DNA of 64,000 bases from Eledone cirrhosa (taxonomy: Eukaryota), in the NCBI GenBank assembly GCA_964016885.1, contig OZ024742.1, forward strand, positions 116,498,001-116,562,000, in the 5' to 3' direction. Under the pieces are notes generated by a model that was not told where the DNA came from, made no database searches, and saw only the letters and a list, made by a program, of their open reading frames with translations. Each line of letters begins with the position of its first letter. Position 1 is the stretch's first letter. Of this stretch, positions 575-62,575 are shown piece by piece. The position numbers and the translations under genes are program-made.

Positions 575-1200
575 TTAGATGCAACATTTTGGGAATGTTT
601 TACATATTTTTACTGTTCCATTGATGGATTGTACTTGTAATTTCCTAACTAGTCGTGTTCTTCCTGTTCCTGTGAAGCCTAGTTTCTCAAGATTTGTATT
701 GAGGCAGTTACTCACATACCCCAGTGCCCCAATAATCACAGGTATAAATCTGAAGGTGTAATAAGGGTGGAGTATCTGCTGATTTCTCATCAGTTCTGCA
801 TAAATATTCTTCTTTTCGCTAATCTTTGATATTATATTTGCATCTGCTGGGCAGCTAATTTCCACTACTGTGCATGCTTTCTTCTCCCTGTACCATATCA
901 TAATATCTGGTTTGTTATGCCTGCATTTTATTGGGGTTTTTACTGGAACATTCCACCAGTACTCTTTCATATTATGTACAAGATGTCTTCCACATTGCTG
1001 TACCTTTTAATGTATTTATTATCGGAGCTCTCTTTTTTACGGATTGCATTGTACAGTGTTTTGGCCACTACATCATGCCTCATAGGTAAATAGTACCGCG
1101 ATGACATCTTTGGACAGCTGCTGATTACATATGGTGATATATTCGCTGTTAGTTCTGCAGAGTCTGCACTTATTATCACATCTAGTTGTTTTACCTGCAT
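575..1200 (-). pseudogene. Zinc knuckle / RLE (PD-(D/E)xK) endonuclease of the R4/Dong-like element
   Basis: SSCPKM..RHDVVAK; WWN..HNKPDIMIW..VEISCP..K..IY; FIPVIIGALG. Confidence 0.88.
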
Positions 1201-1912
1201 CCCTATCTCTTTTGTGAATCAGGTATGTCGTGTTAATTTCCTGTTCTTGGATTGCAAAAGCGTATCCTTCACAGTGGAAGCCAATATAGCGGTTGTTGGT
1301 CCAAGATAGACTACTTTCTTTATCTATATTACTCTCACTCTGGAGCTTCCTGGCAACATATCCATGCATAAATTTTTGGCTGATAAGCATGCAGTTTTTC
1401 ATCCATGGAATCACTGCGATACTGCTCAGCGACTTCCCTGGGTGTGAGTTTTTGATTATCACACAGGGAATATCTCTCGGGGAGTTCCTTCCCAACTCTC
1501 ATGATATTATATGTTTCATGCAGACAGACTTGCTCGAGAGACGGGCTCTAACGTTTCGAGGTTCGTAGATGTCGGGGAGATATGATGCGACATTCAAATG
1601 ATGTCTGGACTGATATTATGCCTCTGCCTCGCTGCTTACGTTTCAAGTAAAGGCGGTCTATGTCACTGTTGATGTGGAAGATTCCGGTGTTGTTTAGTAT
1701 TTTTCGAGTTACAACCTCAACTTCTCGGATTTCGTCTATCGTCCAATTGAGTATTCCAAACGTTGGTGTTAGGACAGGCACAGCAAAAACATTGTGAGCC
1801 ATTGTTTTGTTTTGCGCAGTGAGTTCCGATGACCAAATCTTTCTTAATCGGGTGTAGTATTCCCTGGTTACACGTTCCTTATTACAGATACCATTATAGG
1901 ATATGTTCTCAT

Positions 1913-2737
1913 CTATCCCCAGGTATCTATAGCAGTCCTCATCAATATCGGTGAAACAGTTAGGCCATTGATGACAATGTTGCTAGATTGGGTTGTTGTT
2001 TTTCCCCGCTTTACAATCATATATGAGCATTTATCTTGGCCAATTTCCATTCCTATATACTTTGAGAACGTTGTAACCAGGTCAAGAATGTTCTTAATCC
2101 CATCCATGTTCTTGGCATAAAGTTTCAGATAATCCACAAAGAAATTATGTGTTAGGTTCGTATTTCTGTCCTCCTGTGAGTCAATGATGTATCCTTCACA
2201 TTTCTTGGGCAGAAAGGACAAGGGGTTTAATGACAGGATGAATAATGTCACAGAGAGACTCTCTCTCTGAAATATACCCCTGCGATATTTTATTTTATCA
2301 GTGAAAATAGAGTCCTCCCTCTCTGTCTTTAACCTTAGGATAGTAGCCCAAGAAGAAGACAGCTTATCTATGGCTCTGATAATAATGTCTGGGAGTTTAG
2401 CAAGTTGGAGGGCCTCTATCATCCAAGAGTGGGGAACAGAATCGAAAGCTTTCCTGTAGTCCAGCCAGACTGTAGCCATATTCCTCCTAAGTTGTTGCAC
2501 CTCCGACATCGCAGTTTTGTTGATTAGGAGTTGTTCAGCACATCCCCAAACCCCTTCCTTTCCAGCTGCTTGTTCATCTGTGATGATGTTATTATTTTCA
2601 CAGTGATCTTGGAGGAGTAGGTTCAGGCAGGCTGTATACATCTTATACATCAGGTTCTGGCATGCAATGGGTCGGTAGTTTTTTGCCAAGTGGGTGTCTT
2701 TGTTCTTCGGGAGCAGTAATGTTTGTGCTAATGTCAA
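1913..2737 (-). pseudogene. Reverse transcriptase domain of the R4/Dong-like element
   Basis: RT motifs present, but the catalytic DD is changed to DY and the ORF is frameshifted on both sides. Confidence 0.92.
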
Positions 2738-4684
2738 TCATTCTGGTATAAGTGTATCTCCCTTAAGAACTTGTTGGTAGAGGTCTGTAAGATGCCTCCG
2801 ATAGAATATCAGTTTTTTGTACCAGTAGCCGACAATCATGTCTTTTCCTGGTGTTTTCTTATCTTGGAGTTTTCCTATCACAGTCGCAAGGGTACCCTCA
2901 CTTATTTAGTATGTTTTTTTGTTGTAGTGTAGGAGCAATAGTTCTTTCGGATTTCTTTTAGCCACACTGCATCTTGGTTGAAATTCTTCTTTTCACCCCA
3001 TATTTTGCTCCAAATGGAATCTATATCTTTCTGGGATGGGGCCTCAGTGACACTTATTATTTTGTTCTTCATATCTCTATAGACTGACGTTTGATTCCTT
3101 CTGAATCTTTTATTAAGCACTTTTCTTTCATCTACCTTCTTCAGGTATCGGTGTTTTTCGCTAACAGCTCTCATTTTTTGTTTGAGGGTGATCAGCTTAT
3201 ATTGAAGAGTTCTGGTTCTACTGTTACCAAACATCGTCTCGATATCACTTTTCACTCTTTGTTAGTGAGGAGTGAGGTTTTTTGTGTTTGTTTGCATGTA
3301 TGGAGCATTGTCACATATGCTATGGTTTTTTGTAGGTCAGCAATCTTTTTTTCTATTTTAGTTATATATGATGATATTTTTGGTGGTGTTTTGTTCTTAT
3401 TAATATCTCTGCTATCACCAAGATAATGCTTCACTATCGTTGCTAAGGCATATAAACAGGCGTTGATTTGCCAAAATGTTGGGGTTTTTATCCGTCGTAA
3501 ATATTCATCCCCTATGTCGTCAATAACAGGTAATATTTCATTATTTGTTTTTTTATTAAATATGTTCGTTTTAATACGTTCAGCAAGAGAGATATTCATA
3601 CATGAATTAATTTCTCTCTGGAAGATTTCGTTGAGGGGATTTTAAATTGTTTATACTTTTGATTATCGATAGTATTTTCCACAACAGTCGAAGTAGACTC
3701 GGATGGTACACGTGGTGTCAAATTTCTTCGATTATTATTATTATTTCTTCGATTATTATTATTATTATCGATAGTGTTTTTTCCCCAGCATTCGAGGTAG
3801 ACTTAGTTGGTACACGTGGTGTCAAGTTTCTTACAGCCATAGTTGTTTCAAGGCATTGTTTGTCCTGGCTGCTAGGAAGGCTAGTAACATGGAGACCTGT
3901 AGCATGTGTTGTTGATCCCATATTTGTTATGGGGGACTTACAATTCATAATATTTATCTTATTTTTACGCTCAACAAACGTCGCTTGTCGGCGTAATTGT
4001 TTCCCTGTGAAATAATTTAGCTCTGGGTGCATTTCATCCCAGTGTAGCTTCATTGTGTTCATATACCCAATGGAGGGATTGTTTTTTGCCATTTTATAAC
4101 AATTAAATAAATCATCATTAAGTACGCAACTCCAAGAGATATTCAATTTATAATTTCGGTTTCTTCTGTAGTTACAACTGAATAAAGTTTGTTTACCTTT
4201 GTCGTTCTTTGTCTTCGATACTTCCTTAATTTTGTTGTTATATTGTGTTCAGCCATGCTGTTTGTAGCAAATCCTTGTAAAATGAATTATGTATTTAGTC
4301 GGATATCTCTACGAATTCAAAAAAATGGTGTCTTCAGAAGATATAGTTAGAAGAATAACTAGTTATTCAACATGACTGTAGTTGGGCCATTACTGTCGGA
4401 GATAGTATTCATCTTAAATTTAATAAATAGTCTCCCACGCCAAAATATGCAACTGATCGCAAACACCCACAAAAAAGGCCCATGTTTATATAAATCCAAC
4501 ATTTTACCGATCACAACAAACAATTTATTTGTTGTTGAACCACCAGTTATATGAGCAGATGCTGGGGTACATAGCTTCCATCGGTGACCTTTAACCAATT
4601 ATTTGCGAAACGCTATACTCAATTAAAACATAAATACATGTAATCGAAACTTATATATATATATTGACAGTCAATCGACTTTCG

Positions 4685-12098: not shown

Positions 12099-12149
12099 AG
12101 CTTCGACAGGACAAGAACTGTTTCATTCGAAGGAAATCATCAGAAAACC
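12099..12149 (-). ncRNA. Type I hammerhead (same family as 6256), within a cluster of four partial copies at 12096-12443
   Basis: GGTTTT-CTGATGA-tTTCcttcGAAt-GAAA-CAG ttcttgtc CTG-TC-GAAGCT. Stem I relies on G-U pairs. Confidence 0.7.
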
Positions 12150-15116: not shown

Positions 15117-15570
15117 TCAATCGGGGGCTTTGTAGTTATGTAAGAGGTGTTTCCAGACGTGTGGACAACGTGTGAAGAATTCATTACTTGAGTTTAGGCA
15201 ATAACTATTGCGTAATCTCTTTAGATTATTTATTCGTTCATCAATACATAGTCCACACGACGGATTGCCTCTTGCGTATGGCTTGGAATTAGTGATGGCT
15301 TTCCATTGATTGGAGTAGTCTATACTTGAGTCCTTGAGGGACCATGCGTGGCTCGCAAGTTTCGTATATGAACGCCTGTCCGGGTACCTAAAGGTCGACT
15401 GGTGGTTCAGGAAGCGTTCCTTAAATCGGGCCTCCGCCATACCCATATAGGATTTGACCTCCTGTGGTTGATTTTGTCAGTTGGAAGTGACGACAGCTTC
15501 ATAAACTACAGCGGGTGTGTTGCATTGCTGTTGAAGGGTACAAGCTTCGGGCTTACGGCAAGTGCACCCT
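15117..15570 (-). pseudogene. GIY-YIG endonuclease of the Penelope-like element
   Basis: Cys-rich linker, VVY..YMG motifs, catalytic R, and C-terminal CxxC..E..LN..CxH. Confidence 0.9.
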
Positions 15571-15722
15571 GGTGGGGTGTTGCTCTTAGGGCTGTTGGTG
15601 ATGTGGGCCTTCATGTTCTTAGCGCAGGAGTATCCTAGTTTTACTTTGTGTCGATTAAAGATGCAGCGGTATTTATGACCTATGGGAAAGTGTCTATCTA
15701 AGAGGGCTAGAAAGTTTTTTGC

Positions 15723-16526
15723 CTACATCGGTTTTAACGTTGAGTGAGAATGGAGCAGAGAACCATATAGTTTGTCTATTGTTACGCTTTCTTTTCTTAT
15801 TGCTGTGTTGTTAGTGGAAGAGTAAGTGATAGGTTGCGAGAAGCCGCTGTTAGCTAACGCCGTGTTATAGTAGGGTGCTGCTCTGTCAAAGATAGCCTTA
15901 TTAGAGGAGAGGTTTGAGATTCTAGTACTGATATTATTTACGAAGTTTCTAAAAACAGTGGCAGGGTGGCATGAGTCCTTGTGAATGTAATTGAGTTTTT
16001 CGTTAAGCTTCTGGAAAGGTCTGTAGGTGTGTGTGGGAAGGGTTAAATTAATGTCTAAGAAATCTACGCTAGAGAGGTTGTTAGCTACTGTTATCTTAAG
16101 TCCTAACTCATTGAAGGTAGAAGCTAAGTATTTTTTAAACCGGTCGAGGTCGTAACCACTTTTATGGATCGATAAGGTCAGTCCATCGTCGCGGTATATT
16201 CCCGTGTGGAGATCCGGGAATGTAACTCGTAATATGTCTAAAATAAATAGGCCAACCAAGTGGCATACATCAGCACTGTGAAACGATCCCATGGAGACGT
16301 GGAATAGGTTTGAAGTTGTTGTCTTCATTGCCCAGGCAACTCCGTTGTTAAAGAGGAGGGTTTTCCGGCAGTGAGCAATGATTTCCCTCTCTAAACCATC
16401 GACGGTAGTGTAAGTGGTAGCAAAGTCCAACGCTTTGTTTAACAGGGTCTCTGAGATCGACGGGTAAAAATCAACAATGTCAAACTGTCTGAACTTCGCT
16501 TTTTTGGATTTGAAGGAGTTAAACAA
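15723..16526 (-). pseudogene. Penelope-like reverse transcriptase
   Basis: YRDD catalytic motif and PLE thumb YIHKDSCHP; frameshifted relative to the endonuclease. Confidence 0.93.
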
Positions 16527-16883
16527 CTTAATTACGGAGTCGCTGTTCTCCCACTAGGACAGGTTGGACTTTGTCCTAATGGACTTAACTATGTTTCTAA
16601 GTATGGCCTTACTGACTAGTCCCATATCTGTGCGTGCCGTGTTTAGTAGCCTACATGTGGGGTTACGCAATAACTATTGCGTAATCTCTTTAGAATATTT
16701 ATTCGTTCATCAATACATATTCCACACGACGGATTGACCCTTCGTATGGCTTGGTAATGGCTTTCCATTGAATGGAGTAGTCTATACTTGAGTCTTTGAG
16801 GTACCTTACATGGCTCGCGAGCTTCGTGGATGAACGTCTGTCCGCGTACCTAAAGGTCGACTGGTGCTTCAGTAAGCGTTCCT

Positions 16884-16978
<95 letters not shown>

Positions 16979-17439
16979 AAAGTGTTCGCTACGACACAGG
17001 TGTTTACATATATGTATGAGTAGTTGCATATCTAGCGATATACGATATATATATTTATGTAAAAACTTTAAAAAGCCTTAGGCATGAAACTTGGAAGCTG
17101 ATAGGTAGCGTTATCAGGTGGATTCCATTAAAAGCAAGGGCGGATAATCTGTCAACAGTTGACTTTCTGACTGATGGTTGTTATCAAGATAGCGCTTCCT
17201 CTACTTGCCCTCTGTTGTAAACCAATGTAGGTAAAAACCTATAGTTTTGATGCCTATGTATATAGGCTTATAAGCCTAAATCACCTTCAACATCCTCACC
17301 AAACAGCTTGGTGGGGTTGCCGGTTTAATTGCCGACGATTCGACTATTGTCCTGGGTTACAGGAAGGCCCCTTTCTAGTCCTCCAAAGTCAATGTTTCCA
17401 GGACGCTTTACCCCTCCCCTCCCCCACCCTCAAAGCGGA

Positions 17440-55330: not shown

Positions 55331-55525
55331 TGGGCGGTGGATTGACAGTATCGGTAGAGGGTCGGACGCCATGCTTTGCAGCATAGAGTTACGCTCCTTT
55401 ACGGTCTGAGTTCAAATCCCGCCGAGGTTAACTTTGCCTTTCATCCTTACAGGGTCGATAAAATAAAGCACCAGTAATTCACTGGGATAATTGCAGGCCT
55501 TGTGCCAAAAATAGAAACAATTATT
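55331..55525 (+). mobile_element. SINE copy
   Basis: Match to the family consensus. Confidence 0.92.
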
Positions 55526-56655
55526 AAAAAAGGACAAATATGATATTGTGGTCTGTGAAACACTACGAATAGAAAAGAAATGTTTTTTTTGTTTTCTATT
55601 CGTAGTGTATCTCTTTTGTTTTACCGAGCCTGTTGAATTAAGGCTAACCTGGCGCTAAACAATAAGCAATACGTGCATAGAATCTTCTGAATCGCAATCT
55701 AGTAAGCTGACGGTATATTTTGTTCTAAGTGTTATCTTCAGTCATAAATAGTCTTCCCTCGGCTTCAACGATGTGTTCTTGTCGGTCGATTAACGTTAAC
55801 GAGTTTTTCAAAGACACGTGTACCTATAAGGTATTTCTCAAAGTAATTCAGTATAACAAACTTTGAAATGGACTTCAAAATAGTAACCTCCTACTTAATT
55901 CCACTCATATGGCTTATGTTGACCTCAGGGTATGGTAAATTAAACTTTCGCAAGATGCCCCGCAGTAGGAGCAAACTTTTTAACCATTCAGCATACTGCA
56001 CATATATAGACTTGAACTATAATAAATTATTACCACATGTGCAGAAATACTAAATAAACCATTTATATTGGAAATAAGTAAGAGTTGGACATAAACTAGT
56101 GGCGATGTTTCGGCTAAAGTTATTTAATAAAGCTCACGTTTAGAACAGTTTGTAAGAGATACGATAATGGTCTAATACACAAATATTGTTTGAAACATCG
56201 ACGTTCGTGTTTACACATAGTAGTGAAATTTGGCAAAATTTGGTGAACTTTGCTGATAATACACAATAAACAAGTTGATAACAGAAATAGAAATGAGAGA
56301 CGATACCTGTCAATAATGTAGACATATTTAAGTACATGGAGAATATGTAGAATAAATGAGAAAATAAGATTCTTTCTGATAAAACAAATAACAAAAAACA
56401 ATGTAGATTCCCATCGTAACTTTCAACATATTATACCGTTACCATATACTTGGCAAGGATTTGAACATTCTAAGGTAATTTTCTCTTGTTTAAAAATAAT
56501 ATACCCATAATTATGTTATATAGCATACTGCATAACACATTAGGATTAAGAATATTTTCGTTATAGAACAATGATTCTGAACGTGGATATTCATTGATTT
56601 GTGAATTTGAATATTCCGGGAAGAACATTTTACACATTTTAAAATCCAGACAGGT

Positions 56656-59393: not shown

Positions 59394-59425
<32 letters not shown>

Positions 59426-59427
59426 TA

Positions 59428-59966
59428 AATTGGTGCTCTGAAATAGCGATATATATATGAATGTATATATAGAGTATTTTGCAATAAACTATATGCTTAA
59501 TTAAAAGCATTTTCAAGATCTTACATTTTAAAGTAGTGACTATGTCACTTATTTCTTTTTTTCAGAAAACAAAGGGAGATAAGCTGACAGATCTTTGTTT
59601 CGTACTGTTGGTACTCCTCAGAGCTTAGCACTCCCTTTGCCTGCTGAAAATTATGAATGTTGGATTCTTATAGAATTCCAGTAATAATCAGGAACTGATT
59701 ATACAGAGCGGTTGCCGGTCCAGCAAAAATTGAAAATTAGAATTGGTGCTCTGAAATAGCGATATATATATGAATGTATATATAGTGTATTTTGCAATAC
59801 ACTGTATGCTTAATTAAAACATTTTGAAGACCTTACGCTGTTGTTTTAAAGTAGTGACTATGTCACTTACTTCTTGTTTGCTGAAAAAAGAAGTAAGTGA
59901 AATAGTCACTACTTTAAAACAATAGAGTAAGGTCTTCAAAATGCTTTTAATTAAGCATACAGTGTA
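59428..59966 (-). mobile_element. ~313-bp hammerhead unit with terminal direct repeat and 5' fold-back (retrozyme-like)
   Basis: Direct repeat 59428-~59565 / 59741-~59885; inverted repeat 59798-59966. Confidence 0.85.
59570..59639 (-). ncRNA. Canonical full type I hammerhead ribozyme (GUC)
   Basis: CAAAGGGAG tgc TAAGCT-CTGAGGA-GTAC caaca GTAC-GAAA-CA aagatc TG-TC-AGCTTA t CTCCCTTTG. Confidence 0.92.
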
Positions 59967-59968
59967 TA

Positions 59969-60008
<40 letters not shown>

Positions 60009-61242: not shown

Positions 61243-61431
61243 AATAACAGGTCCATTGATGTAGCCATAATACATGTGTACCTATAAAATATTTCTGAAA
61301 GAAATTCAGTATAACAAACTTTGAAATGGACTTCAAAATAGTAACCTCCGACTTACTTCCACTGTAAAGTGGTTGGTGACAGGAAGGCACCGCGCTGTAG
61401 AAACCATGCCTAAAATGGATTGAGAGGACCC

Positions 61432-62350: not shown

Positions 62351-62575
62351 AGGGCGGTGGATTAACAGTATCGGTAGAGCGTCAAATACCATACTTTTGA
62401 AGCATAGAGTTACGGCCCTTTACGTTCCCAAATCAAATCCTGCCTTACTTAGATTCGCCTTGCATCCTTACGGGGTCGATAAAATAAAGCACCAGTCACG
62501 CACAGGAGTCGAGTTGATCGACCATCCCCTCTCACAATATTGCTGGTTATGTGCCTAAATCTGAAACCATTATCT
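62351..62575 (+). mobile_element. SINE (long-tail variant)
   Basis: Match to the family consensus. Confidence 0.85.

What the first reader, a model, noticed from the sequence alone, without database searches (positions are those of the whole stretch)
59428..59966. Textbook full-length type I hammerhead inside a 313-bp unit with terminal redundancy
Seen: a perfect core (CUGAGGA, G-C-closed 4-bp stem II, GAAA, GUC site at 59588-59586). Stem I is 6+9 bp interrupted by an asymmetric UGC/U loop, positioned to contact loop II (CAACA). The unit repeats with period 313 (about 1.45 copies) and ends in an inverted copy. Established: loop I-loop II contacts give fast cleavage at physiological Mg2+, and ~170-400 nt is the size range of animal retrozyme circRNAs. 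Inference: more than one unit length with terminal redundancy is what reverse transcription around a circular template would leave.
Basis: partly seen in the sequence, partly recalled or inferred. Interest (0 to 1): 0.82.

Follow-up and report, generated by a model that had tools for sequence, protein, structure and literature searches.

The report
Ribozyme retroelement copied around RNA circles
This is an old, likely collapsed copy of a small hammerhead-ribozyme retroelement whose young relatives in the same genome sit as mirror-image arrays of up to two dozen near-identical units, a pattern that likely records a Penelope-type reverse transcriptase copying round and round a small RNA circle.

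Summary
The type I hammerhead is real and covaries across the family, but this copy's stem III is weakened and Rfam misses it. The 313-bp unit belongs to a non-coding family with thousands of copies. Its ends are not permuted: 116 of 142 arms stop at one 3' site, with or without a ~27-nt tail, mostly in (TA)n. That is a Penelope-like (PLE) insertion signature.

The circle idea still gains support. A colinear young sister lineage (16,659 unit matches) forms head-to-head arrays with arms of 0.6-18 units. Each array is uniform for one of 22 genotypes, shared by both arms in 24 of 27, and carries the tail on exactly one arm (54 of 54). This fits rolling-circle target-primed reverse transcription on one monomer. 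The window's family looks like collapsed remnants.

No RNA data, cleavage assay or autonomous partner was obtained. Retrozymes and this model are published as hypothesis; I found no report of such arrays. The scan noted palindromic mini-PLEs elsewhere, not these arrays.

The parts
59400..59425 (.). (TA)n target tract, left flank
   Evidence: 13 copies; sequence
59424..59449 (-). 26-nt PLE-type tail: first bases of the next unit, ending at the second (inferred) RT start site
   Evidence: same tail on 56 of 116 family arms
59450..59762 (-). One full 313-bp non-coding unit, 32.6% GC
59570..59639 (-). Type I hammerhead: stem I 6+9 bp, core 59621-59615, stem II, GAAA, weakened stem III, predicted cut after 59586
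59763..59875 (-). 5'-truncated upstream partial unit; begins downstream of the cleavage site, so it has no hammerhead
   Evidence: junction read
59874..59972 (+). Inverted 5'-truncated second arm, no tail, joined head-to-head through a 2-nt overlap, with an 8-nt internal deletion
59972..60005 (.). (TA)n target tract, right flank
   Evidence: 17 copies

Best explanation
The locus is an old two-armed insertion of a non-coding hammerhead unit into a (TA)n tract, with PLE-type fixed ends and a tail on one arm; it was likely made by a Penelope-type reverse transcriptase copying a monomeric RNA circle from both cut DNA ends, and likely shrank later to about 1.4 units plus an inverted stub. Inferred cycle: tandem arrays are transcribed; hammerheads (probably as dimers, through the palindromic loop III) cut out monomers; a host ligase closes them; a borrowed PLE protein nicks both strands of the symmetric (TA)n target and starts at two fixed sites 27-34 nt apart, one per arm; each RT circles the template until it drops off at random, and the two cDNAs join head-to-head; recombination between identical units later removes whole units. 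This copy has one hammerhead with a damaged stem III and is probably a dead end.
For: Window family: fixed 3' ends in 116 of 142 arms, TA after the end in 93 of 116, tail on exactly one arm in 24 of 27 two-arm loci. Hammerhead covaries: 8 of 20 pairs change on both sides, 0 of 500 shuffles; C3-G8 83, U3-A8 21, mixed 7 of 111. Arms of one locus share rare alleles 14 times vs 0.8 expected. Young sister lineage, colinear, 212 of 324 columns identical: 23 of 24 loci two-armed, all 23 with one tail; arms 0.6-17.9 units, compatible with exponential (simulated p = 0.14); 5' ends uniform over the unit (p = 0.57), so no stop at the ribozyme site. Unselected arms fit one geometric law from the first unit (26 arms, p = 0.26). 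48 multi-unit loci hold 22 genotypes, each uniform; both arms match in 24 of 27 against 0.095 by chance. 54 of 54 outward-facing end pairs are tail + no-tail. Locus-fixed substitutions are A>G in 7 of 18, within-locus ones in 0 of 24 (p = 0.0012; my count). Old-family partner arms have ends uniform modulo the unit (p = 0.88) and lengths not exponential (p = 0.004), 43 of 52 at most one unit, as collapse predicts.
Against: No circle, cleavage or RT reaction was observed. No autonomous partner shares sequence with the unit. The window copy's three segments share no rare allele and differ at 7-11% of sites. Old-family arms reach 2 units in only 1 of 77, so collapse is inferred, not seen. DNA-level events do occur: one variant sits in two units 5 apart in L357, and a deletion is in 4 of 5 units of L402. 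L025 is a direct tandem of two subfamilies, and both arms of L019 share core-breaking changes. Four minority variants recur in another locus. In vitro a PLE used uncleaved RNA and needed no ribozyme activity (PMC11167929). 17 of the 24 complete arrays were top-scoring hits, biased to long.
Confidence: 0.65

Rival explanations
1. Standard PLE route with no circle: a linear read-through RNA of a partial tandem gives short insertions like the window copy, and the young arrays grew afterwards by unequal crossing-over or slippage.
For: The window family is almost never longer than 2 units. Uncleaved RNA is the dominant PLE substrate in vitro (PMC11167929). Local amplification is proposed in 10.64898/2026.07.22.740005. 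One RNA feeding both arms would also give shared variants. L357 and L402 show DNA-level change.
Against: Both arms of most young loci would have to expand several-fold while units stay about 99.9% identical, yet thousands of older partial tandems never expanded. Arm lengths run continuously from under 1 to 18 units. Old ends are uniform modulo the unit.
Confidence: 0.2
2. The RT jumps repeatedly onto ribozyme-cut linear monomers (the same molecule or siblings) rather than circling a ligated one.
For: It gives the same concatemers, and L025 shows that mixed tandems can exist.
Against: No scar at the cleavage site in 231 full units and no excess of 5' ends there. Jumps between sibling RNAs would mix the 22 genotypes within arrays, which is not seen.
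Confidence: 0.08
3. The unit is only the 3' pseudo-LTR of a protein-coding PLE, and all copies are truncated by-products of that element.
For: The end structure is identical to PLE ends, and pLTR homology was found for 24 of 57 Xenopus retrozyme families (10.64898/2026.07.22.740005).
Against: Units join head-to-tail to themselves. 33 of 239 loci have PLE ORF pieces nearby; by coordinates none continues into the unit, and the three read in full are separate insertions with their own ends. The young 1217-aa PLE has no likeness to the unit.
Confidence: 0.04
4. Arrays come from rolling-circle amplification of an extrachromosomal DNA circle, then integration.
For: It gives homogeneous concatemers; the idea is proposed for satellite spread (passage in PMC9940879).
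Against: It does not explain strand-polarised fixed 3' ends, the one-tail rule, (TA)n targeting, ribozyme covariation or the sense A>G bias.
Confidence: 0.03

Closest known systems
Metazoan non-LTR retrozymes (Cervera and de la Pena 2020, PMC7229834)
   Same: Type I hammerhead in a ~300-bp AT-rich non-coding tandem unit; the paper proposes target-primed RT on the circle, probably by PLEs, giving tandem cDNA.
   Different: There the circles were shown and the insertion step was hypothesis. Here no RNA was available, but insertion anatomy is resolved: head-to-head multimer arms, one tail per insertion, one genotype per locus. The word 'inverted' does not occur in that paper's main text.
Animal retrozymes as non-autonomous PLE derivatives (Li, Clavereau, Pollet 2026, 10.64898/2026.07.22.740005)
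   Same: PLE dependence; monomers, dimers and multimers coexist.
   Different: Their evidence is co-occurrence and pLTR homology, and they invoke unequal crossing-over for arrays. Here the link is the insertion signature, and no homologous pLTR was found.
Endonuclease-bearing PLE insertion units (PMC8557442, PMC3846280, PMC11167929)
   Same: Partial tandem, inverted 5'-truncated copy, optional 30-40-bp tail at one end, AT-rich or microsatellite target, two RT start sites; pLTRs suffice for mobilisation in trans.
   Different: No ORF; canonical rather than minimal hammerhead in the window family; young arms reach 18 units.
MRC1, non-autonomous Chlamys PLE of Chlamydomonas (PMC8557442)
   Same: Non-autonomous, with multicopy head-to-tail insertions.
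   Different: Most Chlamys elements lack canonical hammerheads and MRC1-type elements resemble their autonomous partners at the 3' end; the passages seen give no per-unit genotype evidence.

Membership tests
Non-LTR retrozyme | Type I hammerhead with conserved core and three stems | tested here: met
   stem III weakened in this copy
Non-LTR retrozyme | Tandem unit of 150-450 bp, GC under 45-50% | tested here: met
   313 bp, 32.6% GC; sister 311 bp, 34.4%
Non-LTR retrozyme | No protein-coding frame | tested here: met
   no ORF of 100 aa or more overlaps 59424-59972
Non-LTR retrozyme | At least two consecutive hammerhead units (the 'active' criterion of Li et al. 2026) | tested here: not met
   window copy has one hammerhead; met by the young arrays
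Non-LTR retrozyme | Self-cleavage | not testable with these tools
   needs an in vitro assay
Non-LTR retrozyme | Expressed as linear and circular monomer RNA | not testable with these tools
   no RNA holder listed
Non-LTR retrozyme | Lack of PBS and PPT | not tested
   not examined
Rfam hammerhead models | Score at the family threshold | tested here: not met
PLE-mobilised insertion | Partial tandem with 5' truncation and an inverted 5'-truncated copy | tested here: met
PLE-mobilised insertion | Optional 30-40-bp tail at one end | tested here: met
   26-34 nt; 24 of 27, 23 of 23, 54 of 54
PLE-mobilised insertion | Microsatellite or AT-rich target | tested here: met
   93 of 116 arms
Autonomous PLE | RT plus GIY-YIG ORF within the element | tested here: not met
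Derivative of a named PLE family | Homology to that family's pLTR | tested here: inconclusive
   none with the young 1217-aa family or around a second family's RT loci; other families not surveyed

The most novel reading that the evidence does not exclude
This genome records rolling-circle retrotransposition in the act. A PLE protein dimer engages one ribozyme-made monomer circle, primes both strands of a (TA)n cut at two different fixed sites, and writes palindromic concatemers of up to tens of units that later collapse into ordinary-looking partial tandems like the window copy. A>G changes fixed across whole arrays would be RNA edits made on the circle before copying.
Probability: 0.5. Interest if true: 0.85.

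Novelty: new variant of a known kind. Interest (0 to 1): 0.7.

Why it matters
How hammerhead retrozymes re-enter genomes, whether PLEs use circular templates, and why PLE insertions are tandem, inverted and tailed are open questions in the papers read. Here more than a thousand very recent insertions, an older decayed cohort and an intact PLE ORF lie in one genome. That makes the circle model testable by census, pedigree and a reconstituted RT assay. It also suggests a direct route from a ribozyme circle to dispersed satellite arrays (about 5 Mb, from 16,659 x 310 bp). The strict one-tail rule constrains PLE mechanism in general. The window copy itself is an ordinary old remnant.

Tried and rejected
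Rfam scans: no hammerhead hit; only hairpin-like miRNA matches below threshold. Circularly permuted ends: rejected. A pile-up of arms at exactly one unit from their RT start looked present in the first sample but failed in an independent one (77 arms, Fisher p = 0.65). A hard stop at the upstream cleavage site: not seen, 6 of 77 arms pass it. Raw within-locus distance in L001-L060 did not discriminate (6.6% direct, 8.1% inverted, 7.7% between loci). Partner search: the window's PLE remnant, the young 1217-aa family and a second RT family show no likeness to the unit. Pfam and PDB gave no match for the 1217-aa protein. RNA: no RNA holder listed. Contigs of three runs of unknown kind, possibly the assembly's own sample, were laid on one array junction: no listed piece spans it. 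A bacterial promoter scan was irrelevant. Scan look-ups by sequence, by place and by array words returned nothing.

Full report
OBSERVATION. On the minus strand the window has a type I hammerhead: core CTGAGGA at 59621-59615, 4-bp G-C-closed stem II with loop CAACA, GAAA, GUC at 59588-59586, and stem I of 6 + 9 bp around a UGC/U loop. The region folds at z = -4.64, 0 of 200 shuffles. A degenerate pattern finds 2 sites in the window against 0.06 matches expected. Rfam finds nothing at the gathering score or at E<=10. Stem III is not textbook: relatives close it with a G-C pair, this copy has A.C, and the region does not fold as a monomer (0 vs -1.9 kcal/mol; self-dimer -7.2 vs -12.2). Core numbering and the role of loop I-loop II contacts are recalled or taken from PMC4209133; the contact itself was not tested.

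ANATOMY. From left to right: (TA)13, a 26-nt tail, one full 313-bp unit (59450-59762), a partial unit to 59875, a head-to-head join, an inverted partial arm without tail, (TA)17. Only one hammerhead is present, so this locus cannot release a monomer by two cuts (inference).

THE WINDOW FAMILY. The genome is 3.0 Gb; the element gave 3,451 first-look candidates, 40 scored. A 3' 24-mer has 2,079 exact matches, control 0; the window-type ribozyme 25-mer has 87; a 5' 28-mer has 855. I took the first 100 places as 89 loci and dropped 6 duplicates. Of 142 arms, 116 end at the unit's 3' end; 56 of these carry the tail; 93 run into TA; 24 of 27 two-arm loci have the tail on exactly one arm (binomial p = 5e-5). 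The ends are therefore fixed, not permuted. PMC8557442 (passages) and PMC3846280 (passages) describe this partial tandem, inversion and one-sided tail for PLEs. PMC11167929 (parts 1-2 of 4) ties the tail to two adjacent internal RT start sites, predicts a dimer, and found ribozyme cleavage dispensable in vitro.

The ribozyme was under selection. Of 164 distinct copies, 111 keep the core, with C3-G8 83, U3-A8 21 and mixed 7. In 22 copies picked to span subfamilies, 8 of 20 pairs change on both sides (0 of 500 shuffles; slid controls at most 5). Relatedness and my choice of rows inflate that test. Arms of one locus come from one genotype: 141 inverted pairs differ by 7.2% vs 15.8% reshuffled and share 14 rare alleles vs 0.8; 70 direct pairs share 7 vs 0.3. 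The window's own segments share none. Exceptions: L025 joins two subfamilies, and both arms of L019 share core-breaking changes.

THE YOUNG SISTER LINEAGE. A flank fetched during the partner search (L241) held identical 311-bp units, colinear with the window unit over their whole length (212 of 324 columns; score 276 vs 93 +/- 10 shuffled). They have the same two 3' ends and a predicted hammerhead with a minimal palindromic stem III. Such weak stems work as dimers in amphibian retrozymes (PMC7229834, passages and Discussion). A 3' 22-mer has 16,659 matches, with 1,051 tail ends and 1,186 tail-less ends of the forms searched.

I read 24 arrays whole: 17 top hits, biased to long, and 7 from the ordered list. 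They hold 231 full units. 23 are two-armed and head-to-head, each with one tail. Arms span 0.6-17.9 units, mean 1.68 kb, compatible with an exponential (simulated p = 0.14). The 43 5' ends are uniform over the unit (p = 0.57), and no unit has a scar at the cut site. In the ordered list, 15 complete loci (the cut 16th left out; 11 two-armed, 4 one-armed) give 26 arms fitting a geometric law, mean 3.8 (p = 0.26). On the first 222.5 Mb of C1, 83 tail ends and 100 tail-less ends form 54 outward-facing pairs, all tail + no-tail, median span 2.4 kb, largest 15 kb (unread).

Adding 30 loci (seen only within 1.5 kb of the tail), 48 of 54 loci show two or more full units: 326 units, 22 genotypes, each locus uniform. 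Both arms have the same genotype in 24 of 27 (chance 0.095). The other 3 share the core genotype and differ by extra changes. A variant can fill a whole array only through a single-unit bottleneck. A>G makes up 7 of 18 locus-fixed substitutions, several recurring on different backgrounds, and 0 of 24 within-locus ones (my count; p = 0.0012). This fits editing of the template RNA or selection for G-U-tolerant changes; polarity assumes the commoner allele is ancestral. Against a clean picture: a variant in two units 5 apart in L357, a deletion in 4 of 5 units of L402, two minority variants seen in two loci each, and two matching alleles fixed elsewhere. Contigs of three runs of unknown kind show other head-to-head joints, loose TA ends at both 3' sites and the 1-nt deletion of the 310-bp form; they may be the assembly's own sample.

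LINKING OLD AND YOUNG. In the window family arms are short: truncation is 2.15-fold more frequent past one unit (p = 0.0025), and 1 of 77 arms reaches two units. For 52 partner arms not selected by the search pattern, 5' ends are uniform modulo the unit (p = 0.88), lengths are not exponential (p = 0.004), and 43 are at most one unit. Long arrays that later lost whole units predict this pattern; a simply less processive RT does not. No intermediate-age arrays were found among loci L001-L303, so collapse remains inferred.

PARTNER. The genome has a young intact PLE with a 1217-aa RT-GIY-YIG ORF (motifs read by eye; 31,797 first-look candidates). It also targets TA, but its tail is 45-65 nt and it has no likeness to the unit. 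33 of 239 unit loci have PLE ORF pieces nearby, none continuous with the unit by coordinates; three were read. The partner is unresolved.

MECHANISM. Shown: structure, ends, covariation, array anatomy and genotypes. Inferred: cleavage, ligation to a circle, twin priming by a PLE dimer, rolling-circle copying, collapse. I put the PLE-mobilised retrozyme identity at about 0.95, monomer rolling-circle origin of the young arrays at about 0.75, and the whole account including collapse of this copy at 0.65.

LITERATURE. PMC4209133 (parts 1-2 of 4) and PMC7229834 propose more-than-unit RT on circles as hypothesis. 10.64898/2026.07.22.740005 (parts 1-3 of 5) links retrozymes to PLEs and says evidence on the life cycle is limited. 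PMC9940879 was seen as passages. Searches listed no paper describing palindromic multimer retrozyme insertions, locus-uniform genotypes or an exact one-tail rule; two of them used a guessed taxon word. The library lacks most subscription papers and no supplements were read.

VERDICT. The flagged copy is an old remnant of a known class. The lineage it leads to is a new variant whose anatomy gives genomic support for a long-proposed rolling-circle step. Interest 0.7.

Noticed in passing
window 15117-17031 (-): Broken PLE-like RT and GIY-YIG frames of another family, with a hammerhead-like core in the 3' UTR; no Pfam hit.
   Followed up: partly
window 575-4248 (-): Broken non-LTR retrotransposon; one frame matches RVT_1.
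   Followed up: no
window 12105-12143 (-), 12612 (-), 12756 (+), 27160 (-): Further hammerhead-like cores of other short repeat families beside (TA)n.
   Followed up: no
L270:1646-5296 (-) (G000:C3 near 263.88 Mb): Very young, abundant PLE with an intact 1217-aa ORF, an asparagine-rich insert, its own minimal hammerhead and a 45-65-nt tail; no Pfam or PDB match. Candidate enzyme for an assay.
   Followed up: partly
L266:166-332: Distant relative of the unit with a U3-A8 core.
   Followed up: no
L019; L025: Both arms of L019 share two core-breaking changes; L025 is a direct tandem of two subfamilies.
   Followed up: no
L335-L358, L389-L418: Variation among young arrays clusters in the ribozyme (core position 7, loop II, a stem I bulge), and A>G changes recur on several backgrounds.
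   Followed up: partly
window 55332-55485 and 62352-62506; 55811-55905 and 61269-61363: Two other dispersed repeat pairs, 80-92% alike.
   Followed up: no
window 59763-59770 and about 59727-59733 (-): A TATA-like run at the unit junction lies about 35 nt before an initiator-like motif; PMC3846280 notes a similar layout in pLTRs. Possible promoter, untested.
   Followed up: no
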